Source of the DNA: a virus
Taxonomy: Duplodnaviria > Heunggongvirae > Uroviricota > Caudoviricetes
Length of the DNA stretch: 53,655 nucleotides
Reading direction: 5' to 3' (one strand)
Virus record (IMG/VR): IMGVR_UViG_643348545_000009
Location: 1-53,655 of that record
Of the stretch, positions 4,779 through 49,010 are shown in pieces. The notes under the pieces are model-generated. The model was not told where the DNA came from and made no database searches. It saw nothing but the letters and a program-made list of their open reading frames with translations. Numbering within the stretch: the stretch's first letter is position 1; the number at the start of each line of letters is the position of its first letter. The translations under genes were made by a program, and so were the position numbers.

Positions 4779-4962
4779 AGATTTCTCCCATAAAAAAAAC
4801 CGCAGTACCGGTTACCCGGTCTGCGATCAGGGGTATAAATTGTGACTGGCTGGTGTTAAAGGGTGCCGTCAGTCAAAGGCACCCGTGGATAATGTACGAT
4901 GTCCGGCTTTTGTCGTTTTCCGGCAATCACGAACAGATGGATGAAACCTCACTATCCACCTG

Positions 4963-7900
4963 TCACGATGCGGTATCAAAATCGTCTGTATAGGATTTCA
5001 GGTAAAACAGAACCGGGTCCGGGATCCGAATTTGACTCGTATCATGAAGTATTGAACCACCCCTGTAAAAAAGCACACCTGCTTCATACCTGAATGTAAT
5101 TTCAACCCGCGCATCACCCTGTCCGGCAGGAATACCCCATGAGCCTGACGCACTTCCGCCAACATCAGAATATACCGGCTCATATCTGCTGGCGTTTTTG
5201 GAAATCTGGACCTCCCGCTCCCCGGTTTTGACTTTGCCTGACCTGGCATGAACGACAACTTTGTCATTTATCTTCATGATGAATTCACCTCTGGAAAATG
5301 AATACGCCATAAGCATAAGCTTGCGATCAAACGGCATGTTGTCTTTCAGCAAAATCATTTTCTGAAAAGTCAGCTGGTTCTGAGTCATTACGCCCTGCCC
5401 CATATCAACCGTGTATCCCTTGACGATATCACCAATGATTCGGTCAGCGCTCATCGTTCCATTAATGGTGCAGTCTTCCGCAATCGTCACGTTATTCAGC
5501 GTACCGGAACTGGCACTGATATTCCCGCTGATATCGGCATTACGGGCCGTCAGCCTGCCGTCCGGCGTCAGGGAGAATGCCGGGGGATTGCCGCCGCTGG
5601 TAATGGTGGGGGCGGTAAGAACCTTTATCAGGGCCTCATTGATAAACGTCTGTCCCCCCTGCGTGACCAGTGCGGGTGTGGTATCACCATTCTCCGGATT
5701 AATGAATGCCACACGGTCCGCTGCCAGCAGTATCTGGCTCTGCATCCCGTCAGGGGTGTTCTCAATACCGGCACCGATACCGGCAATATAGCGACGACCA
5801 TCCTGCATCTGCTGTAGCTTCACCGCCCACATGCTGTTCAGGTCATTATTTGTGTCCGTCTGCACACGCTGGATTTGCTGTATGGTGGCGTTCTGGTCCT
5901 CCAGCGTTTTACTGACCGTCTGCGTGATTTCATTGCGGGTTTCGGTGATGGTGGTCTGCATTTCCGCCATCTCGTCCTTCAGCTGACTGTTGTCAATCTC
6001 TGCCCACAGCGCCTCTGCCAGATGCGTTTTTCCTATCTTTTCCCGGAAAAGTTCCAGATAGCCCGCAGCATCATTGCTCGCCCGTCCACTGGCTTCCACA
6101 AAAGCAGATTTACCCACCAGGTTGACGCTGCGCACATAAAACCAGAAATCCTTTCCGGGCTTAATGTGCGGACCGGAGACACTCCACTGACTGCCGGTCC
6201 CCAGATAACGGGCAGAGGTTTCCACCTGTGCGGCGTCTGCAATTTTTGCCTCCGAAAACCAGAACTCAAACTGCACCGTCGGGTCATAAATGGTCAGTTT
6301 CGGGACTGCCGTTATCTGAAAATACCCCGGCGTCAGTTCAACACCGGCAGGCGCTGCCGGTGCGTTAATCCGGAACGTGGTGGTGGCGGGTTCGCCCTGC
6401 TGGCCATAGCTGTTAATCGCCCTGACCGTCAGGGTGTATTCCCCGAGAGGCAGGCCACTGAAACGGTGCTCCGTATCGGCAGTGATGGCGGTGGTCAGCA
6501 GGCGGCTGTTCTCACCGCTTCCACTGGTCAGGCGCAGACTGAAGCGCACGCCCTTCACCACCCGCGGCGTGTCCCATTTCGCCAGCGCCAGATACTGGCC
6601 GTCAGCTGCGCTCACCTCCACCGTCAGGTGCTGCACTGCCGGTGGGATAACGCTGTTCAGGGTGCCTGACTGCGGCTCAAAGCGGGCTCCGTTATCCACA
6701 ATGGCTTCTTTTTCCGGTACGTGCTGCACCGCCGTGATGGCAAAGGTGCCGTCCGTGTTTTCCCGGATGGCCACACAGCGGAACAGGCGACGGCGCAGTG
6801 ACGGCAGGGAGAGTCCCCACACCCCGTATGTCTCCACACCATCAGGCAGGGTACTGACCTGTATCCGGTCCGGCGCGGGGTGTGCGGTGATGTCCACACT
6901 CACCGGCTTACCGCTGCCGTTAATCAGGTTCACCGTCGATGCACCTGTCCCCGGAAGTGTCACTTCACGGTCCAGCGTCAGGGTGCGGGTGGCAGCATCG
7001 ATGGACAGGACACGTCCGCCGGTCAGGGTCCCGGCATAGTCGTTATCACAGATTTCAATAATGTCACCGGGTGTGTGCCGCAGCCCCTGAGACCCGAGTG
7101 TGAAATCCACCGTCTGCGTTTCCAGCAGTTCGGTCTTTATCACCCACAGCCCGGCACGGTGGGCCTGACCGCGGCTGGTACAGCCGAACGCGTCCATCTT
7201 CAGCAGGTTGCGTCCGTAGCGCAGTATGGCTTCCGGGTCTTCCACCAGTTCCGTGGAGGTCTGCCAGCCGTTCTGCGGGTCGGTGTAATTCACCTCCACC
7301 GCCGTGTGCCGGTCCTTCAGGGCACTGAAGCTGTAGCGGAACCCCACGCCGTTATCATCCACCACCACATCGCTGTTGGTGTACGGCCACACCACATCCG
7401 ACGGGCGGTCCTGAACGAACGTCAGCGTCTGGCCGTTCCATACCGGCATACAGCGCATCGCCGAGCAGAAATCACTGAGAACGTCCCACGCCTTACGCTG
7501 TTGTGCCAGGTACGCATTAAAGGTCATCCGCGGCTCTGTGCCCCCGAATCCATCCGGGACCGTCTGGTCGCAGTACTGCCCGATGGCATACAGCGCCCAC
7601 TTGTCCACATCCGCCGCCCCCAGGCGTTTTCCCATCCCGTAGCGCGGGTGAGTCAGCATGTCCCACAGGCACCAGGCCGGGTTGTTGCTGTATGCCGGTT
7701 TCAGACTGCCGTCCCAGATACCACTGTACGTGCGTTTTTCCGGGTCATAGTTTGACGGCACCTGGATGATGCGACCGCGGATATGGTAGTTCACCGTCAT
7801 CTGCTGGCCGCCGAACTGCTCCGCATCCACCTGCAGCCCCACAATGGCCGTGTTCGGGTAGCACTGTTTCACATCGATGATTTCGGTGTATGACGACCAG

Positions 7901-11017: not shown

Positions 11018-11079
11018 GTCAATATTTCCTAATCCGATTTGTTGATACCGAAGCCCTGACTGTTACAGCAGTTGGGGCT

Positions 11080-11220
11080 TCAACTTTTTAGGCTGCGAAT
11101 AAGACGCTGCACTATTTCTGAATTTAAAGACCTGCCCTCCTCCTTAGCCTTTTCCTTCAATTTTTCTTTAATCTCTGGCGGGATACGAATCCCTAATGGA
11201 GCGATATCTCTAACTTTCAT
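11080..11220 (-). CDS. arc: Arc-like ribbon-helix-helix repressor
   Basis: 46-aa product MKVRDIAPLGIRIPPEIKEKLKEKAKEEGRSLNSEIVQRLIRSLKS resembles P22 Arc (…NGRSVNSEIYQRV…); internal ATG at 11218-11220 chosen over the longer ORF. Confidence 0.7.
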   Translation of the reverse strand: MKVRDIAPLGIRIPPEIKEKLKEKAKEEGRSLNSEIVQRLIRSLKS

Positions 11221-34717: not shown

Positions 34718-35174
34718 CTTCAATGCAATAATCGTAAAACGCCGCGAACTGCTCATCGCGGCGTTTTTTTGCATCTTCAGAAGGCATCAGCGTCGACAGT
34801 TTTTTATTCAGTTCAACGACGCAATTCTCCAGTTTTTCAATGCGTGATTCGATATCATCTTTTTCTGACAGTATCGTGTTATATGCATTGTTAATTTGTA
34901 TGGTATACCGATCTTCGGAACAAAGGCACTTTTCCTGTGACTGTTCATCCCCTTCACATAACCCGGCAGCAATATCCATGAAAAACTGCTTCGCCTTCTT
35001 TTTCGCCTCAGCTTCGTAAAACTCCAGCGGGGCACCTTCAACACGATCAAGATCAATCACCACATTTGGCAACAACAGTGACGTATACCCACCCGTTTCC
35101 AGCGCTACAGTAACAGTAATCTTATCCGGGTAATTATTTATCCCTTTAACAACCAGTTCGTATTGTTTATTCAT
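34665..35174 (-). CDS. Hypothetical protein inserted between holin and endolysin
   Basis: 169 aa, soluble, coiled-coil C-terminal half; ATG at 35172-35174 overlaps the S21-like frame stop (ATGA). Confidence 0.5.
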   Translation of the reverse strand: MNKQYELVVKGINNYPDKITVTVALETGGYTSLLLPNVVIDLDRVEGAPLEFYEAEAKKKAKQFFMDIAAGLCEGDEQSQEKCLCSEDRYTIQINNAYNTILSEKDDIESRIEKLENCVVELNKKLSTLMPSEDAKKRRDEQFAAFYDYCIEVTRRNFVKAFEESKSLQ

Positions 35175-35211
35175 CGTCTACTCTCCCCGCGCCGCCTTAC
35201 GCCGGTCTTCT

Positions 35212-35394
35212 TTAATCTTTGAAATACCGGTTCGTCAGATATGTCAGCAGCCCAAACAGCAGACTCCCCAGCACGCCTATTGCCGCCCACTGAGACGGGG
35301 AAACCCTGTCCAGAAACTGCAGGAACCAGTAGCCCGTTCCCACCGCTGACGTGGTGTATGACACACCTGTTGTGATTTTTTCCATCTGGTACAT
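35212..35394 (-). CDS. S: Pinholin (S21-like class II holin), C-terminally truncated by a +1 frameshift
   Basis: [60 protein letters not shown] matches S21 as recalled (…[25 protein letters not shown]…LTYLTN.YFK); dual Met starts; the S21-like tail [13 protein letters not shown] is encoded in another frame. Confidence 0.8.
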
Positions 35395-35469
35395 ACCCCG
35401 TCTCCCGTACTCGGAAGCTCACAACAACAAAAGGGCCACCAGCTCTTTACTGATGGCCCTGCCCCGCCG

Positions 35470-35760
35470 TTACAGCATTGTGCCCGGTTCGGGTTGTGTG
35501 TCTGTCATATCCGTCACCGGTGACTCCGGCTGAATATCACCATTTTCCGTGGTGACATCTTCCGCCTGTGGTTCCGGAAGCAGTTCCGGGGATGGTTCCG
35601 GCTGTGCACCAAGCAATTCATCCAGAATTGAATCCACTTCTGCATCAAGACGCGCCTCAAGGTTCTGCCGAAGTTGCTGTTTCAGTGCGCTCCGGACTTC
35701 TTCAGAGCGCAGGACTTCCTTCACTGCCTCAGCAGTGACCAGCGATTTTATTTCTGACAT
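35470..35760 (-). CDS. Hypothetical acidic protein
   Basis: 96 aa from ATG 35760 (MSEIKSLVTAEAVKEVLRSEEV…), Glu/Pro-rich C-terminus. Confidence 0.4.
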   Translation of the reverse strand: MSEIKSLVTAEAVKEVLRSEEVRSALKQQLRQNLEARLDAEVDSILDELLGAQPEPSPELLPEPQAEDVTTENGDIQPESPVTDMTDTQPEPGTML

Positions 35761-35797
35761 AGGATTTTCTCGTTGAAAGGTGTTGTCAAGAAAGTGA

Positions 35798-35980
35798 CTA
35801 CGGAATGAGCGGATCTTCGGGTTTGCTTCCGGCTGACTGACTGGCGCTGATTTTCTCTGCGGCCCTTTTATCAATCTGCCTGCGCCAGAAATCGCGCACT
35901 GCCCTGTACCCACCCGAAAGAAGATACATAACACAGACTGCCGTACAGAAGTACAGCATCACCTGATGAACAAATGTCAT
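35798..35980 (-). CDS. Small putative membrane protein
   Basis: 60 aa with one TM segment (VMLYFCTAVCVMYLL). Confidence 0.3.
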   Translation of the reverse strand: MTFVHQVMLYFCTAVCVMYLLSGGYRAVRDFWRRQIDKRAAEKISASQSAGSKPEDPLIP

Positions 35981-36119
35981 AGTTTCTTACCGTTATGGTT
36001 GACAATGAGAACTGTTTTCATTTAAAAAACCGATATACGAAAGCATCTTTTCTTTACATTCTCCATTGGGATTACCTCCGCCAGCTTCCGTTCCTGCCGC
36101 TGGCGGCTTTTTTTGCCGG

Positions 36120-38108
36120 TTATGATGATGCCCGGCTTTCGTTAACTTTGACTGTGACCGTATCAAGCAGTACAGGATACGTCGCTTTTGCCCCCGTGAT
36201 ATCTGTCAGCGTCAGCGTATCTGCTGTAAAGCCATCATTTGTCCACATCACAAGGTCAAACGCCGTCTGCTCTGTACCATCAATTACCGGAACGACTCTT
36301 TCGCTGTTATTTCCCGCAAAGCGGAAAACAACCGTATGCCAGTTATGGTCAAACGCACCAAATGTACCCAGTTGTGCATTCGACGTGCCCTTGTGGTGCA
36401 TAAGATTCAGATTTGATGCATCCGTCTGAAGGAAGAATGATGCCAGCATACTGTTTGCTGCCGCGCCTGACGCCCACTGCGACACCGGCCAGTAGAGACC
36501 AAAGACAAACTGTCCGTTCACCAGTTCGCTTCCATCCGGAATTTTGAACCGTACGGCAATTTCACCCCCCTTGCTGAGAAGATTTTTTGCCTCCTCCACT
36601 GCAACAGTACGGAACATTTTCCAGGACGTCAGTTTACCGGGCTGTTTTTCCAGTCGTAGCGCTTTCCGTCCACCGTCATCAGTCACAGTGCCTTTGCCAC
36701 CGGCAGCCCCCCACTGCTGCTCTGTCCATACACCATTTCCACTGTTCGCATCATATTCAGCCACCGTCCTGGTACTGCTCACGGCCTCATCATGACCAGT
36801 ACCAGCAACACCGCCATCCTGCGGTTTCTCAACACCCGGTACCCCCGGACTGACATCATCACCGGGAGTTGTACCACCCAACTGCGGTGCGCTCTGCCCG
36901 GTAAGGAACGATAATGTCCGCCCGGCGTACTGCAAAATGGCACCTGCCAGGCGGTCTGAAACAATGCCTCTTCGCGCCCATGAACTGAAGTGCGTTTTAC
37001 GATCGGCTGACGTCCAGTTACTGGCAGTGCGTGACGCAGCACCATAGTATCCCGCCGGGATAATGTCCGGATCTTCTGACGGCTCGTTTGTCGGCACATT
37101 CACACCATGCTCATCCGTCATCAACGGCACAAAGAAGATTTTTTTTGCGGATTTCGTCTTGTATGCACCATACACCGCATCGTATTGCGAAGAATAAGTC
37201 TGCTTCCAGTAGTAGGTCGTGTCGCCACAAATCCAGGGAACCGATGACGGAGAGCCCCCGAGACACTGACCTCCGAATTCCGACAGGTCAGAACGATATT
37301 TTTCCACCATGGAATCAAACAGCCCCGGCTGAGTGGCGTATGCACCCTGTTTCAAATCAAACTCGCCCTGCATCCAGACCACTGCAAGCAGAATATTTTT
37401 AGGGTTAGCCTTCAGTGCGGCCTGAGTACGGGTAAGCAGGTCCTTGTACAGTGGCTTATCTACACCCCAGCGTGCCGAGGTCTCGCTTGCGCCGGTGGAT
37501 TCGCTGAAAGTACCTTCATCGCCCTCCAAAAATGCAGAACCACCACGGCAGCACGGAACCAGAAGAATACCGGCATTCGCCGGAATAAACGGCAGCAGTT
37601 TTTTGGCGATATGCAGCCCCTGCCCCACGGTTCCGTACTGCCCCTTTGACAAGTCCGCTTTCGGATGGTTAAGACGGCTCATGTCCTGTACATCATGCAG
37701 ACAATGGTCCGCCGGAATGATGTCGTTATATTTACAGGCGACACCACCCGGTGTCACCGTACTGCGACGCGCCAGTTGCTTAATGCGCGGGTCCGGACGG
37801 TCATATGTCTCCGGCAGCGGCAGCCCTTCACCAAAAGACATTGAGTTTGACTGCCCCGCCAGAACAACAACAAAGTAATACTCCGGTTCGCTGGTGGTGC
37901 TGATAACTGTGCCTTCTCCATCCGACGGCTTCACCACCACAGGTGTGGTGACATCACCTTCCGCCGCAATGGCCTGCATCAGGGTATAAGGCGTGATGGC
38001 GACAGGGCTGCCAAATGGCTGCCACCCCTCCTTCAGTTTTTGTGTCAGTCGCTCCGCAAGGTCTGACGGCGACGCCGCCCTGACCACATCGTAGTGTTTA
38101 AATGTCAT
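36120..38108 (-). CDS. nanS-p: Prophage-encoded sialate O-acetylesterase-like protein (NanS-p-like; DUF1737 N-terminus plus SGNH-type esterase)
   Basis: 662 aa; N-terminal MTFKHYDVVRAASPSDLAERLTQKLKEGWQPFGSPVAI… DUF1737-like; …VVLAGQSNSM… SGNH-like motif; position between Q and lysis genes as in Stx-type phages; GGGAGG upstream of ATG. Confidence 0.8.
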   Translation of the reverse strand: MTFKHYDVVRAASPSDLAERLTQKLKEGWQPFGSPVAITPYTLMQAIAAEGDVTTPVVVKPSDGEGTVISTTSEPEYYFVVVLAGQSNSMSFGEGLPLPETYDRPDPRIKQLARRSTVTPGGVACKYNDIIPADHCLHDVQDMSRLNHPKADLSKGQYGTVGQGLHIAKKLLPFIPANAGILLVPCCRGGSAFLEGDEGTFSESTGASETSARWGVDKPLYKDLLTRTQAALKANPKNILLAVVWMQGEFDLKQGAYATQPGLFDSMVEKYRSDLSEFGGQCLGGSPSSVPWICGDTTYYWKQTYSSQYDAVYGAYKTKSAKKIFFVPLMTDEHGVNVPTNEPSEDPDIIPAGYYGAASRTASNWTSADRKTHFSSWARRGIVSDRLAGAILQYAGRTLSFLTGQSAPQLGGTTPGDDVSPGVPGVEKPQDGGVAGTGHDEAVSSTRTVAEYDANSGNGVWTEQQWGAAGGKGTVTDDGGRKALRLEKQPGKLTSWKMFRTVAVEEAKNLLSKGGEIAVRFKIPDGSELVNGQFVFGLYWPVSQWASGAAANSMLASFFLQTDASNLNLMHHKGTSNAQLGTFGAFDHNWHTVVFRFAGNNSERVVPVIDGTEQTAFDLVMWTNDGFTADTLTLTDITGAKATYPVLLDTVTVKVNESRASS

Positions 38109-38210
38109 GAATCCTCCCGGTCGGGATAATGTTGTGAGTCAGATGAGGGGCGGGCTGAAGTCCGGAAGTTACAGGACAATGGCAGGAGGAAGACTACAGC
38201 CCGCAATACG

Positions 38211-38235
38211 AAAAAGGCCGCGCAGTTGCGCAGCC
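38211..38235 (-). terminator. Intrinsic terminator about 100 bp upstream of the esterase gene
   Basis: Hairpin GGCTGCGCAACTGCGCGGCC followed by UUUUU on the minus strand. Confidence 0.4.
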
Positions 38236-38290
38236 TTATGAATTCTGGTTAAAATCCATTCGATTATAAAAATGTATATCTCATGCTGTT

Positions 38291-38316
38291 GCCCGAACCC
38301 ACTCGGGCTTTTTTTT
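38291..38316 (+). terminator. Plus-strand intrinsic terminator-like hairpin
   Basis: GCCCGA-ACCCACT-CGGGC followed by T8. Confidence 0.4.
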
Positions 38317-38326
38317 GCCCACAAGA

Positions 38327-38556
38327 AAGCCCCTCCGGAGAGGGGCTAAAGCCGCGTATCTGTATCATCATGCACATGGTGCCGGGTGCCTCCCGGTGAG
38401 TTCAGCCCGGTGCCACTAAACCCGCGTCATTCTCGTTTTGATAATCAGAGATTATACCGTCACCAGTCGCCCCTCCGCTCAGGGGGATTCACCATGCGAA
38501 ATTTTTTTAACAAATGCCCAGTCTGACAGGCAACTGTCAACTTACTGAATTGTGAG
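38327..38556. repeat. Copy A of a ~230-bp hairpin-rich element
   Basis: Shares with copy B: AAAGCCCCTCCGGAGAGGGGCT, ATGCCGGGTGCCTCCCGGTGAGTTCAG, CCCCTCCGC.CAGGGGGATTCACCATGC, TTTTAACAAA, CAGTCAAC, CTGAATTGTGAG, in the same order. Confidence 0.6.
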
Positions 38557-38812
38557 CAACATAGCATTTAACGGGGAACCTGTTTTCTGCAGTAAAAAGG
38601 CCCACCGGAGCGGATGGGCCTGGAAGGATAGCGGTCATGTGATGCCGGTTTCCCGGTAACTCAGCACCGGTATCTGAGTCAACGTTTTCTCTACTGGGTC
38701 ATTTCCGATACGCCCTGCCTGCTGACAGGCTTTCATCACATCTGAAAATATAGCACCCTGACTGATACTGTAGTACCTAAGGTTCCAGAAACTGTGATGT
38801 ATCCGGCACAGA

Positions 38813-39039
38813 AAAGCCCCTCCGGAGAGGGGCTGGAGAGTGGCGCTATGTGCCATTGCATGATGCCGGGTGCCTCCCGGTGAGTTCAGTATCAGCACCT
38901 GAACCCGCACAGAAAGGATAAGGGTCGGTGACAAAACACCAGTCGCTGATTGCCCCTCCGCACAGGGGGATTCACCATGCCAGTTTCTTTTAACAAACTC
39001 CCCGCAAACCAGACAACAGTCAACCGCCTGAATTGTGAG
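38813..39039. repeat. Copy B of the ~230-bp hairpin-rich element
   Basis: Same ordered motif set as copy A; diverged spacers. Confidence 0.6.
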
Positions 39040-39163
39040 GTATTTAAAAATTTCAACGGGTAACTGATACCCTGCTAATCGCCTGATGCTTTCTTTTTCA
39101 GCAACGGGAAAGCAACAACCACCACACCCACCAGCCGCCCATTTACCACAAATAAAAAAGCCT

Positions 39164-39361
39164 TCAGGACTGAAGGCGTCTGTAACAACCGAACTGATAG
39201 TCTGCCAGCCCCGCCATAACAAGCTGGGTCAGTATTAACTGGCAGCGTTCGCGTGAAAGGTAAGTATTCTGCGCAATCTCCCCGACTGTCGCCGGGTCGG
39301 TGACGCTTAATTCATTAAACACCACTCTGGCGGTTTCGGTCATATCCTGCTGTTTTAGCAT
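39164..39361 (-). CDS. Hypothetical small protein downstream of the late terminator
   Basis: 65 aa from ATG 39361 (MLKQQDMTETARVVFNELSV…); followed by terminator-like hairpin GCCTTCAG-GAC-TGAAGGC with U-run. Confidence 0.35.
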   Translation of the reverse strand: MLKQQDMTETARVVFNELSVTDPATVGEIAQNTYLSRERCQLILTQLVMAGLADYQFGCYRRLQS

Positions 39362-39484
39362 GTCTTTTTCCCTTTTCCGGTTAACGTGACACACCAATAA
39401 CTCTTGTCGAAAAAGCCAGCAAGATGAAAGGTCGCTATTCACGACCACCAGCGCGTTTAACGTCCTGTGCCGTTTTTCGGGCAT

Positions 39485-39506
39485 AAAAAACCCGCCAGTG
39501 GCGGGG
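39485..39506 (-). terminator. Strong intrinsic terminator (tR'-like)
   Basis: Hairpin CCCGCCACTGGCGGG followed by UUUUUU on the minus strand, about 200 nt downstream of a TATAAT hexamer at 39689-39694. Confidence 0.5.
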
Positions 39507-39708
39507 ATCTTTTGATAAAAACGACAAAGGCACCATTAAGGTGCCTTTTACACAGGGCAGCAGGCTTGTCATCACCTTATTGCTACTCCTGGCTTCCAGT
39601 TCGGAAGTCTCACAAGTCCCATCAGGGTACAGCGACAGTATCAGTCAACACTCTATGATTCTGCTGAACAGGCAGTTTCGCACTGTACATTATAACCTGT
39701 TAAGCCAA

Positions 39709-39734
39709 CAAAAAACCCGCTCGGCGGCGGGGTT
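39709..39734 (-). terminator. Intrinsic terminator-like hairpin just downstream of Q
   Basis: Hairpin AACCCCGCCGCCGAGCGGGTT followed by UUUUUU on the minus strand. Confidence 0.4.
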
Positions 39735-39803
39735 TGCTTACTTTGCCATCGCGTACAAAATCGGCAAAATATCAGATTTACACGGAATATATGATCTTCA
39801 GTT

Positions 39804-40487
39804 CTATTTTGCAAGATATGGTTCTAAATTAAGCGACTTTTTCCGTGAACGTACCCGCATTACTGAAATAAGAGCATCCCTGTCCAGCATCTCTGCACTA
39901 CCCCGCATAGCCAACCAGTGAGGCCTGTGTGTTTTTGTCCATGTAGATTTAGCAACTCCTATGAACAGCGCTAACTCCTGATGTTCATAGGTCTCACGCC
40001 CTGCCAGCTCACTCTTCACATCCTGTGCCGCCAGCCAAATCAGTTTCTTCAGACGATCCAGCGTTTTCCCTGCAATTTTTCTGGTACCAGCCTGAGCTTT
40101 AAACTCACCCCATACCCATTGTGTTATAGTGACCTGATCTTCCCAGCAAACATTTCCACTGTAGCACCACAGTAACCACGCCTTCTGATGTTCTTCCAGT
40201 TCCAGAACGGCACGCCGCCACGATGATGTTGCAAACTCAACCGGTCTGACCAGCGCAATTGATGAGCCTTTCGCCAGTGATTGTTTACCCGGGATCGGTG
40301 GATTATCCCGCGTGATCATTTTTCCGGTTACCTCATCGCGATAACGAATTTTTTTGCGTCTGTAACGCCCTGTATCGAACAGGGCATTCTCCTGCCAGGC
40401 TTCCAGCTGGCCTTTTGTCGCCCCACTGAGATCCGCAGTGGCAATCATGAGTTGCTCACGAACAAACTGTAAATACTGGTTATTCAT
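39804..40487 (-). CDS. Q: Late-gene antiterminator Q
   Basis: 227 aa from ATG 40487 (overlaps rusA stop, ATGA); Q-family pattern and position upstream of the late region. Confidence 0.75.
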   Translation of the reverse strand: MNNQYLQFVREQLMIATADLSGATKGQLEAWQENALFDTGRYRRKKIRYRDEVTGKMITRDNPPIPGKQSLAKGSSIALVRPVEFATSSWRRAVLELEEHQKAWLLWCYSGNVCWEDQVTITQWVWGEFKAQAGTRKIAGKTLDRLKKLIWLAAQDVKSELAGRETYEHQELALFIGVAKSTWTKTHRPHWLAMRGSAEMLDRDALISVMRVRSRKKSLNLEPYLAK

Positions 40488-40843
40488 GCGCACTCCAGTT
40501 CTGTGATTTTTATCCCCAGCCGCCCGCCAGGAACAGGCAGGCCACGCACAATATTGATTTCATCAAACTGCTCATCGTCCATTAACAACCCCGCGTGCGT
40601 CAGCGCATCCAGCGGTGCTTTCAGAATATTGTCCAGGTCACGACGACGCTTATCCGGTGGCTCTGCAATAATTTTTATTGCCAGCCGTCCGGACAGGCTT
40701 AATTTCAGTCGCTGCTGGCGAACAATAAGCGACACTGCCCGGCGATAACGCTCCCCGGCTTTTGATACAAAATATGTGCTGCCACGGCGTCGCCAGTAAG
40801 TGTTCACCGTCGGCGGGTAAGGTAAAACCAAATCTATGAGCAT
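40484..40843 (-). CDS. rusA: Holliday junction resolvase RusA
   Basis: 119 aa MLIDLVLPYPPTVNTYWRRRG… with conserved RusA motifs (…DLDNILKAPLDAL…). Confidence 0.9.
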   Translation of the reverse strand: MLIDLVLPYPPTVNTYWRRRGSTYFVSKAGERYRRAVSLIVRQQRLKLSLSGRLAIKIIAEPPDKRRRDLDNILKAPLDALTHAGLLMDDEQFDEINIVRGLPVPGGRLGIKITELECA

Positions 40844-40855
40844 CAGTCACCTCTT

Positions 40856-41905
40856 TTACCCAAGCACGCCAGTTGCAAAGGCGTGATCAAGAAAACGAAA
40901 AATTAAATCAACCTGAGAACCATGCTTTTCTTCGAACGCCAGCGGATCCGCATGAAGCTCGTTGTGATGCTCCCGACACAGCGGTAGCGTGAAAATATCG
41001 TGAGATTTTGTCCCCATTCCGCCCTGACCATGACCAATCAGGTGATGGGGATCGTCGGCTGGCTTACCACAACACGCACACGGCTGTGTCTTCACCCAGC
41101 GTTTGTATTTCTCGTTAACCCAGCGGCGACGTTTAGGTCGTTTCATGAAAGATTCCGGAGACTCAGGATCAACGGCAATGCTGACCACCGTCTTTTCCTG
41201 TGGTGAGTTCTGTTGCTGGTGGGCGTGAGGCAGCGGCGCAAGATTTTTTGTGCGCTGTTTCAGGATGCTGGTGGCGGTCTGCTCTCCCGGCACGATGTCG
41301 CTCTCGCGGTATACTGAGCGAATTTTTTCCGCACGTAACCCCAGAGAACGACGTAATGCTGCCTCTGGTAGCGCGTCCGCCACCTGATTGCAGACCGCCC
41401 ACCAGGATAATTCAGCCAGCGATAATTCCCGCTCCTGCGTGCCATTCATTGCATGGCGTATGACGTCAATCATCCATGCTGACAAGTTTTGATGAGCAAG
41501 TTGCTCGAGTGATTCGGATGTCTGGTCACGCAGCTGGTTGTCGCAGTGCCAGCACAACACCATTGCGCCGGTACCATAACGGTGAATAACGGTTTCGCTG
41601 TGATGATAATCGCCGTGTGGCCACTGGCAGGATTTAATATGGCGCAACAGCCAGTCAGACAATGCACCAGCACCACCAGCAGCACGAATTACCCGTGCGT
41701 TACTGAAAAACGGCAGCAATGTTTTGTCTTCCACCAGCGGCTGGCGAACGGCAGGAACGACCCCGGACGGCAGATTACGCATGCTTTTCGGTTCCGGCTC
41801 CACCAGTACCCGGGTATTGTGGAATATAGGCATGGATTCACGGCCTGGCTTAAGGACCACCAGCCCGAGTTCCGGAACCAGAACAGGTCGAAGTAATACC
41901 CGCAC
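40856..41905 (-). CDS. DUF968 family protein (YdfU-like)
   Basis: 349 aa; C-terminal Cys/His cluster …KTQPCACCGKPADDPHHLIGHGQGGMGTKSHD…LPLCREHHNELH… typical of YdfU/DUF968 as recalled. Confidence 0.75.
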   Translation of the reverse strand: MRVLLRPVLVPELGLVVLKPGRESMPIFHNTRVLVEPEPKSMRNLPSGVVPAVRQPLVEDKTLLPFFSNARVIRAAGGAGALSDWLLRHIKSCQWPHGDYHHSETVIHRYGTGAMVLCWHCDNQLRDQTSESLEQLAHQNLSAWMIDVIRHAMNGTQERELSLAELSWWAVCNQVADALPEAALRRSLGLRAEKIRSVYRESDIVPGEQTATSILKQRTKNLAPLPHAHQQQNSPQEKTVVSIAVDPESPESFMKRPKRRRWVNEKYKRWVKTQPCACCGKPADDPHHLIGHGQGGMGTKSHDIFTLPLCREHHNELHADPLAFEEKHGSQVDLIFRFLDHAFATGVLG

Positions 41906-41906
41906 G

Positions 41907-42185
41907 TTACCTCCAGATGCGTTGCTGGAATGTGCGGGACGGACGCGGTGGGCGTTCAGAGTAAGGAAGCCTGACGGAGATTATCCAGTGACGATAATCG
42001 AGGCTGAGGGTTTTCCTAAACTCATACCCACGTCTGCGGTAGTTCTGAATCAGCCATTCGGCCTGTTCTTCAGTGCATGGGGCGTGCTGTAACCAGTCAG
42101 ATTTGAATGCATGAGAACGCCGCCCGTGCCTGCTGGCAAAGACGGCTGAATTATCAGAATTGTATAATTTGGTATCGTGCGCCAT
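41907..42185 (-). CDS. Hypothetical protein
   Basis: 92 aa from internal ATG 42185 (MAHDTKLYNSDNSAVF…); the longer ORF would need a TTG start. Confidence 0.4.
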   Translation of the reverse strand: MAHDTKLYNSDNSAVFASRHGRRSHAFKSDWLQHAPCTEEQAEWLIQNYRRRGYEFRKTLSLDYRHWIISVRLPYSERPPRPSRTFQQRIWR

Positions 42186-42352: not shown

Positions 42353-42508
42353 TTACTCCTCAGGTTCGTAAGCTGTGAAGACAGCGACCTCCGTCTGGCC
42401 GGTTCGGATTCGTACCTCGCAGAGGTCTTTCCTCGTTACCAGTGCCGTCACAATGACGGTAATACAGATGACGATCAGGGCGACTAACATCGCCTTTTGC
42501 TGCTTCAT
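42353..42508 (-). CDS. hok: Hok/Gef family type I toxin (HokD/RelF-like)
   Basis: 51 aa MKQQKAMLVALIVICITVIVTALVTRKDLCEVRIRTGQTEVAVFTAYEPEE, near-identical to recalled HokD. Confidence 0.9.
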   Translation of the reverse strand: MKQQKAMLVALIVICITVIVTALVTRKDLCEVRIRTGQTEVAVFTAYEPEE

Positions 42509-42744
42509 AGCCTGCTTCTCCTTGCCTTTCGGCGTGTAAGAGGCTAACCTACATGTGACTAGCATGAAATTGGCCTCAGATTAATGTTAAGCGTCCTGCA
42601 AGACGCATAATGTTAACTGGGGCTTTTCTCTATCTGCCGTTGGTGTTCATGCCCGAGGCAGATAGCCTCAAGCACCCGCAGCAATTCTACTTAACTCACG
42701 TCACCTCGCCAATATGAAATCAATCAGAAAGGTGATCCATAAAA

Positions 42745-48952: not shown

Positions 48953-49010
48953 CCCATGCGTAGTCTTTGGTGGCATCAGTTCTACTCCGTGACTGCTCTG
49001 CCACCCTTTT
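48953..49010 (+). ncRNA. dicF: DicF-like small RNA with terminator
   Basis: …TTTGGTGGCATCAGTTCTACTCCGTGACTGCTCTGCCACCCTTTTT closely matches recalled E. coli DicF (…TTTGGCGGTATCAGTTTTACTCCGTGACTGCTCTGCCGCCC); lies just upstream of dicB. Confidence 0.6.

What the first reader, a model, noticed from the sequence alone, without database searches (positions are those of the whole stretch)
38109..39163. Two copies of a ~230-bp hairpin-rich element between Q and the esterase gene
Copies A (38327-38556) and B (38813-39039) share an ordered set of conserved blocks including two GC-rich hairpins (AGCCCCTC/GAGGGGCT and CCCCT…AGGGG followed by GATTCACC) separated by diverged spacers. Conserved stems with variable spacers suggest a structured RNA or protein-binding site rather than coding sequence, and the reading frame from the shared ATGGTGAATCC is not conserved. 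The elements occupy the site where Stx-type phages carry tRNA and toxin genes; I found no tRNA-like T-loops or toxin ORFs.
Basis: seen in the sequence. Interest (0 to 1): 0.55.

Follow-up and report, generated by a model that had tools for sequence, protein, structure and literature searches.

The report
Known prophage small-RNA genes (STnc100)
The two repeated hairpin-rich elements are tandem genes of STnc100, an already catalogued small-RNA family that lambdoid prophages carry between their late-gene activator Q and their lysis genes, so the finding is real but ordinary.

Summary
Both copies are full-length, high-scoring matches on the minus strand to Rfam family RF02076 (STnc100): 38317-38526 at 165.5 bits and 38804-39009 at 138.1 bits, against a curated threshold of 47. 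A third, diverged copy with the same fold lies between them (about 38741-38592). An AsxR-like small RNA (38261-38313, + strand) converges on copy A.

This is the Hfq-binding sRNA "dyad" already described between the late promoter and the lysis genes of EHEC prophages (EcOnc27/AsxR). PasD1 and PasD2 of EPEC are distant relatives. In an Stx2a phage the same element sits 75 nt after stx2B. The whole 1.1-kb arrangement occurs in 344 of 5426 complete E. coli genomes.

Each copy looks like an independent gene: a sigma-70 promoter, a structured core of about 120 nt, a single-stranded linker of about 25 nt and an intrinsic terminator.

Across 127 homologues from many Enterobacterales the core shows strong covariation. 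That analysis also suggests two things absent from the Rfam consensus structure: a shifted register for hairpin 1, and a pseudoknot.

The family's function is still unknown. The most likely one is Hfq-dependent base pairing in trans. Verdict: already known, low interest.

The parts
38987..39016 (-). Predicted sigma-70 promoter of copy B: -35 TTGTCT (39016-39011), extended -10 TGTTAAAAG (38995-38987)
   Evidence: Read from the sequence. Across 134 non-redundant family members a TAnnnT hexamer peaks 11 nt upstream of helix P1, and many members carry a TTGAC-like motif further upstream. Inferred; not mapped experimentally.
38808..38980 (-). STnc100 copy B, predicted RNA of about 173 nt: structured core 38980-38858, single-stranded linker 38857-38835, intrinsic terminator 38834-38815 plus U tail
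   Evidence: Rfam RF02076, 138.1 bits, full model. The minimum-energy fold reproduces P1, P4, P5 and the terminator. Terminator scan. The 5' end is inferred from the RNA-seq-estimated start of PasD2, which falls on the first base of P1.
38592..38741 (-). Copy C: diverged STnc100-like unit with the same architecture (P1 AUGUGAUG/CAUCACAU, a replaced P2, P4, P5 with a GAAA loop), terminator 38621-38598
   Evidence: Rfam STnc100, 30.1 bits, below the threshold of 47. Minimum-energy fold. Terminator. Alignment with copies A and B.
38504..38533 (-). Predicted sigma-70 promoter of copy A: -35 TTGCCT (38533-38528), extended -10 TGTTAAAAA (38512-38504)
   Evidence: Read from the sequence. Family-wide position of the -10-like hexamer relative to P1. 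Inferred.
38321..38497 (-). STnc100 copy A, predicted RNA of about 177 nt: core 38497-38374 (P1 38497-38490 with 38381-38374; P2 38487-38470; P3 38466-38461 with 38412-38407; P4 38423-38415 with 38406-38398; P5 38396-38382), linker 38373-38348, terminator 38347-38328 plus U tail
   Evidence: Rfam RF02076, 165.5 bits, full model. Fold. Helices supported by covariation. 84.5% identical to the copy downstream of stx2B in an Stx2a phage.
38261..38316 (+). AsxR/AgvB-type small RNA with its own terminator (38291-38308 plus T tract), convergent with copy A; the predicted 3' ends lie about 5 nt apart
   Evidence: Rfam RF02703 AsxR, 63.0 bits, exactly at its threshold of 63; AgvB 43.4 bits, below its threshold. 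Terminator. The paired arrangement is described in PMC7873438.
38214..38237 (-). Further intrinsic-terminator-like hairpin between the sRNA dyad and the esterase start codon (38108)
   Evidence: Terminator scan. Its role is not established.

Best explanation
The region holds three head-to-tail genes of the prophage small-RNA family STnc100 (Rfam RF02076). EcOnc27/sRNA103 of Stx2 phages is a member or close relative, and PasD1/PasD2 of EPEC are distant relatives. Two copies are canonical and one is diverged. A convergent AsxR-type sRNA completes the locus.

Each unit is a self-contained gene on the late-gene strand:
- a sigma-70 promoter, predicted to start transcription at the base of helix P1;
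- a compact core of about 120 nt, made of closing helix P1, bulged hairpin P2, a P3-P4 pseudoknot around a variable insert, and the invariant hairpin P5;
- a single-stranded linker of about 25 nt that differs between copies;
- an intrinsic terminator.

The most likely mechanism is Hfq-associated base pairing in trans. The linker would be the target-pairing seed, the terminator with its U tail the Hfq-binding module, and the structured core a stabilising or specificity domain. Because the units lie in the leader of the late operon, Q-modified polymerase would also read through them during lytic growth.

What is shown here: family membership, strand, fold and synteny. What rests on published work on relatives: transcription, Hfq binding and pairing to targets. 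What is inferred: the promoters and the seed for these particular copies.
For: Membership: full-length Rfam matches of 165.5 and 138.1 bits against a threshold of 47.

Same position as in an Stx2a phage: the element lies 75 nt after stx2B and upstream of the esterase gene. Copy A is 84.5% identical to that copy.

Synteny: in Citrobacter and Pantoea the elements also lie between a Q-type antiterminator (or NinG) and the holin/lysozyme/Rz genes, on the same strand.

Fold: strong covariation, pseudoknot P3 and strand-specific G-U pairs.

Gene-like units:
- A -10-like hexamer peaks 11 nt upstream of P1 in 134 non-redundant members.
- 165 of 274 cores have their own terminator, at a median of 28 nt after P1.
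- The RNA-seq-estimated 5' end of PasD2 is the first base of P1.

Literature on relatives:
- EDL933 has 11 transcribed STnc100 copies, one confirmed by northern blot (PMC5331693).
- EcOnc27 binds Hfq and forms a dyad with AsxR; such dyads lie between the late promoter and the lysis genes in at least eight Sakai prophages (PMC7873438).
- PasD1 and PasD2 were detected by northern blot and form Hfq-dependent chimeras with many mRNAs. Their predicted seed, UGUGAG, falls in the linker when placed on the PasD2 sequence (PMC8550237).
- PasD and STnc100 are proposed to share an ancestor (bioRxiv 10.64898/2026.05.13.724894).
Against: - No expression or Hfq-binding data exist for these particular copies.
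- The terminator U tails (UUUCUUGU, UUUUCUGU) are interrupted, which is not ideal for Hfq.
- The predicted -10 hexamers (TAAAAA, TAAAAG) lack the conserved final T, so the promoters may be weak.
- No validated direct target exists for any STnc100 member. The reported effects of EcOnc27 on fimZ and espA come from overexpression and their mechanism is unclear.
- The core is conserved from Pantoea to E. coli down to invariant loops and junctions. Ordinary Hfq sRNAs do not need that, which suggests an additional or different function.
- 11 of 274 cores are followed by another core or a tRNA gene with no terminator between them.
Confidence: 0.85

Rival explanations
1. The conserved pseudoknotted core is the functional part. 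It binds a specific protein or small ligand, or mimics a tRNA-like substrate, for example as a decoy, a sponge or a sensor. On this view Hfq-mediated seed pairing is secondary or incidental. This does not exclude family membership; it concerns what the RNA does.
For: - Invariant sequence blocks (GGUGAAUCCCCCU..GCGG.GGGGC and UCACCGGGAGGCACCCGGCA) persist across many genera, while the helices around them covary.
- Pseudoknot P3 is supported by partner permutation: 6.40 nt against 4.61 +/- 0.09. PasD2 also has the complementary segments (AAUGAUC/GAUCAUU).
- Outside E. coli only the core is conserved. It occurs in arrays of up to 5-6 units, sometimes 6-41 nt from the next core or from a tRNA gene with no terminator between.
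- All 199 core-tRNA pairs within 3 kb are on the same strand.
- P1 (7-8 bp) directly abuts the 5-bp P5, like the acceptor and T arms of a tRNA.
Against: - No ligand or partner is known.
- ARAGORN and the Rfam tRNA model find nothing in the elements.
- The P5 loop, AGGCA, is not a T-loop.
- Most units have their own promoter placed to start transcription at P1 and their own terminator. RNase P-type processing from arrays is therefore not the main way they are made.
- Terminator sequences differ between members (copies A and B, copy C, PasD2, the L141 units), and I saw no antiterminator pairing in copy A, so a riboswitch-style platform is not evident.
Confidence: 0.25
2. The units act in cis on the late transcript. 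They would be a series of terminators or processing and stability elements in the leader, keeping the esterase and lysis genes silent without Q and shaping the mRNA once Q is present. The small RNAs would then be by-products.
For: - The units lie on the late-gene strand between Q/pR' and the esterase and lysis genes in every genus examined.
- The 2.1-kb stretch scanned has 16 terminator-like sites against 2.4 expected by chance, most of them on the late strand.
- StxS is a published case of a regulatory RNA produced by early termination of the late transcript (PMC7873438).
Against: - A terminator does not need a conserved pseudoknotted structure of 120 nt in front of it.
- The units appear to carry their own promoters.
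- Relatives accumulate as discrete, Hfq-bound RNAs in uninduced lysogens.
Confidence: 0.12
3. The repeats act at the DNA level, as a repetitive extragenic element such as ERIC or REP, or as a recombination site, with no RNA function.
For: The family has many copies per genome, up to 18 places. It shares a 10-nt string, GTGAATCCCC, with the ERIC1R primer sequence as I recall it from memory.
Against: - Compensatory changes include 345 G-U cells against 59 A-C cells. This is strand-specific and points to RNA rather than duplex DNA.
- The ERIC1R-derived 22-mer has no match in the window even with 3 mismatches allowed.
- In every locus examined the elements lie in prophage late regions.
- Relatives are transcribed.
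Confidence: 0.02
4. The elements encode small proteins, starting for example from the shared ATGGTGAATCC.
For: Short ORFs of 33-54 aa, and one 195-aa ORF with a TTG start, overlap the region. Some EDL933 STnc100 copies have appreciable ribosome footprint coverage (PMC5331693).
Against: - Reading frames are not conserved between copies, because the spacers differ by indels that are not multiples of three.
- The ATG lies inside helix P1, which covaries as RNA: CAUGGUG, GCGGUG, GUGAUG and GCUAUG each appear with the matching partner strand.
- The 195-aa ORF has no Pfam match.
- PGAP annotates no CDS there.
Confidence: 0.02

Closest known systems
STnc100 (Rfam RF02076, 'Gammaproteobacterial sRNA STnc100')
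   Same: Copies A and B match the whole 206-position model at three to three and a half times the curated threshold. The genomic context, a lambdoid prophage late region, is the same.
   Different: Nothing essential differs. Covariation here favours a hairpin-1 register shifted by one base, with a bulged nucleotide, and adds a pseudoknot that is not in the Rfam consensus structure line. The first 30 or so positions of the Rfam model appear to be promoter rather than RNA.
EcOnc27 / sRNA103 of Stx2 phages, and its dyad partner AsxR
   Same: Same position (immediately upstream of the sialate esterase gene nanS-p), same orientation, same convergent pairing with an AsxR-type RNA. Copy A is 84.5% identical to the STnc100 copy after stx2B in an Stx2a phage.
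   Different: This prophage has no stx or tRNA genes. It carries three tandem units instead of one. Its AsxR-like RNA differs from the family consensus in the 5' half.
PasD1 / PasD2 (EPEC E2348/69 Hfq-dependent sRNAs; EHEC homologue EcOnc13)
   Same: Same location, directly upstream of the esterase gene. Same layout: core, then a linker holding the seed, then a terminator. Same P1-P2 start, and the P3 pairing is possible.
   Different: PasD2 scores only 41.4 bits against the STnc100 model, below threshold. Its P5 is degenerate and its linker (seed UGUGAG) and terminator are different. None of the three window copies is a PasD variant.
Phage T4 tRNA-cluster stable RNAs (species 1 and 2, rnaC/rnaD); recalled from my own knowledge, not tested
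   Same: They are structured stable RNAs of about 120-140 nt and unknown function, encoded among phage tRNA genes on the same strand.
   Different: No sequence or fold comparison was made. Most STnc100 units have their own promoter and terminator rather than being cut out of a tRNA precursor.

Membership tests
STnc100 (RF02076) | Covariance-model score at or above the curated gathering score (47 bits) over the full model | tested here: met
   Copy A 165.5 bits and copy B 138.1 bits, both covering model positions 1-206. Copy C scores 30.1 bits, so it does not meet this test.
STnc100 (RF02076) | Base-paired architecture maintained by compensatory change | tested here: met
   91.5% of cells paired; 19 of 27 pairs show changes on both sides; 0 of 500 shuffles reach the observed value. 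The window copies fold into P1, P4, P5 and the terminator.
STnc100 (RF02076) | Location in a prophage late region, on the late-gene strand | tested here: met
   Q (PF06323) lies upstream and the SASA esterase downstream, all on the minus strand. The same synteny holds in an Stx2a phage, Citrobacter and Pantoea.
STnc100 (RF02076) | Expressed as a discrete, Hfq-associated small RNA | not testable with these tools
   Shown only for relatives: a northern blot for STnc100_4 (PMC5331693), Hfq crosslinking (Hfq-CRAC) for EcOnc27 (PMC7873438), RIL-seq for PasD (PMC8550237).
AsxR (RF02703) | Covariance-model score at or above the gathering score (63 bits) | tested here: met
   38261-38313 (+) scores 63.0 bits, exactly at threshold. 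The AgvB model gives 43.4 bits against a threshold of 56. Membership is marginal; it is best called AsxR/AgvB-type.
PasD | Sequence similarity to PasD1/PasD2, including the seed region CCUUGUGAGUUCUGG | tested here: not met
   In the alignment with PasD2 (E2348/69 741157-741328), copies A and B share only the P1-P2 block and the general layout. Copy C aligns poorly, and the seed is absent from all three.
tRNA | Cloverleaf with a T-loop and an anticodon arm, detectable by ARAGORN or Rfam RF00005 | tested here: not met
   No tRNA in the window. No tRNA hit in 35000-42000 at E-value up to 1.
Transcription-terminating riboswitch | Aptamer followed by a terminator, with mutually exclusive antiterminator pairing | tested here: inconclusive
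   The core-linker-terminator layout is present. By inspection copy A has no antiterminator pairing, terminator sequences are not conserved across members, and some cores have no terminator at all.
ERIC/REP repetitive extragenic elements | Match to the ERIC consensus and dispersal outside prophages | tested here: not met
   The ERIC1R-derived 22-mer, recalled from memory, has no match with up to 3 mismatches. All loci examined are prophage late regions.

The most novel reading that the evidence does not exclude
The roughly 115-nt core of STnc100 may be an autonomous, pseudoknotted RNA domain. Its invariant loops are conserved in the late-operon leader of lambdoid prophages across Enterobacterales, often in arrays and always co-oriented with phage tRNA genes. 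It may have a specific function of its own that nobody has yet described, such as binding a host or phage factor or a metabolite, or acting as a tRNA-like decoy. The Hfq-dependent seed pairing reported for PasD and EcOnc27 would then be only part of the biology. As far as I can see, the pseudoknot and the corrected P2 register appear neither in the Rfam structure nor in the RNAalifold models of the 2026 preprint.
Probability: 0.3. Interest if true: 0.6.

Novelty: already known. Interest (0 to 1): 0.2.

Why it matters
For this window it matters little. The elements are standard parts of lambdoid prophages in E. coli, and near-identical copies are in hundreds of public genomes, although NCBI's pipeline leaves them unannotated.

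The family itself has some importance:
- It sits next to the Shiga toxin genes.
- Its members are abundant Hfq ligands that contact virulence mRNAs.
- SNPs within EcOnc27 were among the best predictors of haemolytic uraemic syndrome in a machine-learning study (PMC12711010).
- No function has been assigned to it.

The comparative analysis done here gives a better structural model for designing mutants. It includes the pseudoknot, the revised P2, the position of the promoter relative to P1, and the linker as the probable seed.

Tried and rejected
1. tRNA or degenerate tRNA. ARAGORN finds none in the window and the Rfam tRNA model gives no hit.
2. Copy C as a PasD homologue. Alignment with PasD2 of E2348/69 shows it is not one; it is a separate diverged member.
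3. RNase P-type processing as the origin of the 5' end at P1. This became less likely once a -10-like hexamer was found at a fixed distance upstream of P1 in 134 non-redundant units. It could still apply to the few units packed into arrays.
4. Riboswitch with an antiterminator. The P2 3' strand (GAGGGGC) can pair with the 5' half of the copy A/B terminator (GCCCCUC). However, terminator sequences differ between members (copy C, PasD2, the Pantoea units), so the complementarity is not a family feature.
5. ERIC-like repeat. No match.
6. Coding sequence. No conserved frame, no Pfam match and no PGAP CDS.
7. Thermodynamic stability alone. z-scores are only -1.5 and -2.3. The argument for structure rests on covariation, not on folding energy.
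8. A column-based count for P3 was not attempted, because MAFFT does not keep that helix in register. A partner-permutation test was used instead.

Full report
**What is there**

The genes in this part of the window all run on the minus strand. They are a DUF968-type gene (40856-41905), rusA (40484-40843), antiterminator Q (39804-40493, PF06323), a 65-codon ORF (39164-39361) and a sialate O-acetylesterase of the NanS-p type (36120-38108; DUF1737, SASA and DUF6645 domains). The finding lies in the 1.05-kb gap between the small ORF and the esterase gene.

It reports blocks of 88, 31 and 28 nt, 80-97% identical and about 484 nt apart. The predicted RNAs are 76% identical overall, with conserved blocks separated by diverged spacers.

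**Identification**

A scan of 35000-42000 against Rfam 15 gives two full-length minus-strand matches to RF02076, STnc100. They are 38317-38526 (165.5 bits, E 2.7e-38) and 38804-39009 (138.1 bits, E 2.8e-31), against a gathering score of 47. A scan of the whole window repeats them.

Between them lies a third, sub-threshold match at 38592-38765 (30.1 bits). Its minimum-energy fold has the same architecture, with P1, a hairpin in place of P2, P4, a GAAA-looped P5 and a terminator.

On the plus strand, 38261-38313 matches AsxR at exactly its gathering score of 63.0 bits. It is convergent with copy A. ARAGORN finds no tRNA gene anywhere in the window.

**What the literature says about the family**

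- STnc100 is among the most abundant sRNA families in Rfam and has no assigned function (PMC9029176).
- E. coli O157:H7 EDL933 has 11 copies. They are transcribed, and one was confirmed by northern blot (PMC5331693).
- In Stx2 phages one copy lies 75 nt downstream of stx2B (PMC12370729). I confirmed this in Stx2a phage Stx2_95, where stx2B ends at locus position 4955, STnc100 spans 5030-5244 and the esterase gene starts at 5466.
- That copy overlaps the Hfq-bound sRNA EcOnc27/sRNA103 (PMC12711010).
[quoted passage not shown] The window's copy A plus its AsxR-like partner is such a dyad.
- PasD1 and PasD2 of EPEC are Hfq-dependent sRNAs of 172-173 nt with many RIL-seq partners. PasD2 lies directly upstream of the esterase gene (PMC8550237).
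- A 2026 preprint proposes that PasD and STnc100 share an ancestor (bioRxiv 10.64898/2026.05.13.724894).
- I fetched the PasD2 locus. It scores 41.4 bits against the STnc100 model, below threshold, and is not the same as any window copy.

**Distribution**

A megablast of 38100-39200 finds the family in 2921 of 5426 complete E. coli genomes, with a median of 2 and a maximum of 18 places per genome. The whole three-unit arrangement, at 80% coverage or more, is in 344 genomes. The best match is 99.7% identical. PGAP annotates nothing in the gap.

Among phage records 354 have a match, mostly Stx-converting phages, but none has the full arrangement.

Pattern scans of IMG/VR and of one genome per species recovered more than 200 loci. 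They come from Kosakonia, Enterobacter, Pantoea, Erwinia, Klebsiella, Citrobacter, Salmonella, Trabulsiella, Cedecea, Raoultella and others.

In Citrobacter braakii and Pantoea the elements again lie on the late-gene strand, between a Q-type antiterminator (or NinG) and the holin/lysozyme/Rz genes.

**Structure**

Outside E. coli only the core is conserved. This core corresponds to Rfam positions of roughly 30-155, from CAUGGUG to CACCAUG.

I aligned 127 core sequences that were less than 87% identical to each other and counted pairs. Overall, 91.5% of cells are paired. Shuffles give 81.0% (0 of 500 reach the observed value) and slid partners give 43-47%. Nineteen of 27 pairs show changes on both sides.

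- **P1, the closing helix.** Seven of its 8 pairs show compensatory change, for example GC:81 with AU:31 at one pair and UA:86 with CG:25 at another.
- **P4.** All 8 pairs show compensatory change.
- **P5 (CCGGG-AGGCA-CCCGG).** It is almost invariant. Part of the sample was selected for this sequence, but the IMG/VR set, which was selected on a different block, also keeps it.
- **Hairpin 1 (P2).** The data favour a register different from Rfam's: U.G, CCC/GGG, one bulged base, CC/GG and a UNNGC loop. This register is 99.7% paired, with compensatory changes at three pairs. The Rfam register is 87.9% paired and no better than shuffles.
- **P3, a pseudoknot.** The segment just after P2 is complementary to the loop of P4. 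The longest complementarity averages 6.40 nt between true partners and 4.61 +/- 0.09 nt when partners are permuted among sequences; the highest of 200 permutations is 4.91. Many distinct pairings occur, such as CUGGUG/CACCGG, AUCAGC/GCUGAU, CCAGUC/GACUGG and AAUGAC/GUCAUU. Copy A uses CUGGUG/CACCGG and copy B AUCAGCG/UGCUGAU. PasD2 has the complementary segments AAUGAUC/GAUCAUU. The Rfam consensus line has no pseudoknot.
- **Strand.** G-U cells outnumber A-C cells by 345 to 59, so the folded strand is the late-gene sense strand.
- **Folding energy.** The z-scores are modest, at -1.5 and -2.3.

**Gene anatomy**

In 134 non-redundant units a TAnnnT hexamer peaks 11 nt upstream of P1, and many units carry a TTGAC-like motif further upstream.

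In the window, copy A has TTGCCT, an 18-nt spacer and TGT-TAAAAA. Copy B has TTGTCT, an 18-nt spacer and TGT-TAAAAG. The predicted starts are therefore at the base of P1. This agrees with the published estimated 5' end of PasD2, which is the first base of P1.

Of 274 cores, 165 have their own terminator at a median of 28 nt after P1. Eleven are followed within 6-41 nt by another core or a tRNA gene with no terminator between.

So the usual unit is promoter, core, linker and terminator, as in the window. The linker is where the PasD seed lies, and it differs between copies A and B. The two copies are therefore not a recent duplication. They are two diverged family members placed side by side, and copy A is closer to the Stx2-phage copy (84.5%) than to copy B (76%).

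**Relation to tRNA genes**

The elements are neighbours of those genes, not replacements for them. All 199 core-tRNA pairs within 3 kb are co-oriented, and none is on opposite strands. In many phage contigs a Met-Arg-Arg tRNA trio ends about 105 nt upstream of a core. In the Stx2a phage the order is the tRNAs, then stxAB, then STnc100. In Citrobacter a core ends 8 nt before a tRNA-Met gene.

**Mechanism and verdict**

The best-supported reading is a set of ordinary STnc100-family sRNA genes. They most likely act with Hfq by base pairing through the linker, and Q-modified polymerase also reads through them in the late transcript.

What remains unexplained is why the core is so strongly conserved and so elaborately folded. 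A specific partner or ligand for the core cannot be excluded, and this is the only part with real novelty potential.

As a finding about this window, it is already known and ordinary.

Noticed in passing
window 39708-39814 (-): A promoter-like site (TTGCAA, 17-nt spacer, TATATT; 39814-39786) overlaps the end of Q. About 60 nt downstream is a strong terminator (39731-39716, CCCGCCGCCGAGCGGG followed by a T tract). This looks like the pR'-tR' unit that yields a short 6S/StxS-type transcript. More terminators follow at 39548-39526, 39505-39491 and 39177-39160, and there is a weak isrK-like hit at 39485-39544 (19.8 bits, below threshold).
   Followed up: no
window 39164-39361 (-): A conserved 65-codon ORF (MLKQQDMTETARVV...) lies between Q and the sRNA units. 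It has no Pfam match, and RefSeq annotates the 198-bp gene at this position as hypothetical protein WP_000917768.1. A 198-bp hypothetical gene sits at the same position after Q in Stx2a phage Stx2_95 (L002 1925-2122); the two were not compared.
   Followed up: partly
window 42503-42677 (-); 11019-11085 (+); 48955-49006 (+): Other Rfam matches above threshold in the window: sok antitoxin RNA (113.2 bits; a near-identical genome annotates hokD next to it), sar RNA (69.4 bits) and DicF (58.9 bits). All are typical of lambdoid or P22-like prophages.
   Followed up: no
L141 860-2060 (-), Pantoea sp. App145 plasmid pAPP145_2: Six STnc100 cores lie in two groups of three. Within a group the cores are 12-56 nt apart and only the last is followed by a terminator-like hairpin. 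Each group is preceded by a similar block (CGCCGATGTGTGGCATGGTTTTATTTG / CGTCGATGTGGGGCAGGGTTTTATTTG), possibly a duplicated late-promoter region. The middle core of each group has an unusual P1 (GCCGGAACG / GCUGGAACG).
   Followed up: partly
L160 5680-5752 (-), Candidatus Pantoea formicae: ARAGORN reports a tRNA-like gene with a four-base anticodon (ctaa), embedded between STnc100 cores.
   Followed up: no
L155 2583-3377 (+) and L056 5220-5316 (+): Matches to isrI (RF01392, 46.7-60.2 bits, above its threshold of 45) are interleaved with STnc100 units on the same strand. The late-region arrays therefore mix several RNA families.
   Followed up: no
window 38214-38237 (-): A terminator-like hairpin (AAGGCTGCGCAACTGCGCGGCCTT followed by a T tract) lies downstream of copy A, on the strand opposite the start of the AsxR-like gene and just before the esterase start. 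It could end read-through transcripts or a longer isoform.
   Followed up: no
L002 (Stx2a phage Stx2_95) 5244-5466: No AsxR match reached the gathering score in this Stx2a phage, although STnc100 is present after stx2B. The AsxR partner of the dyad may be more variable than the STnc100 partner.
   Followed up: no
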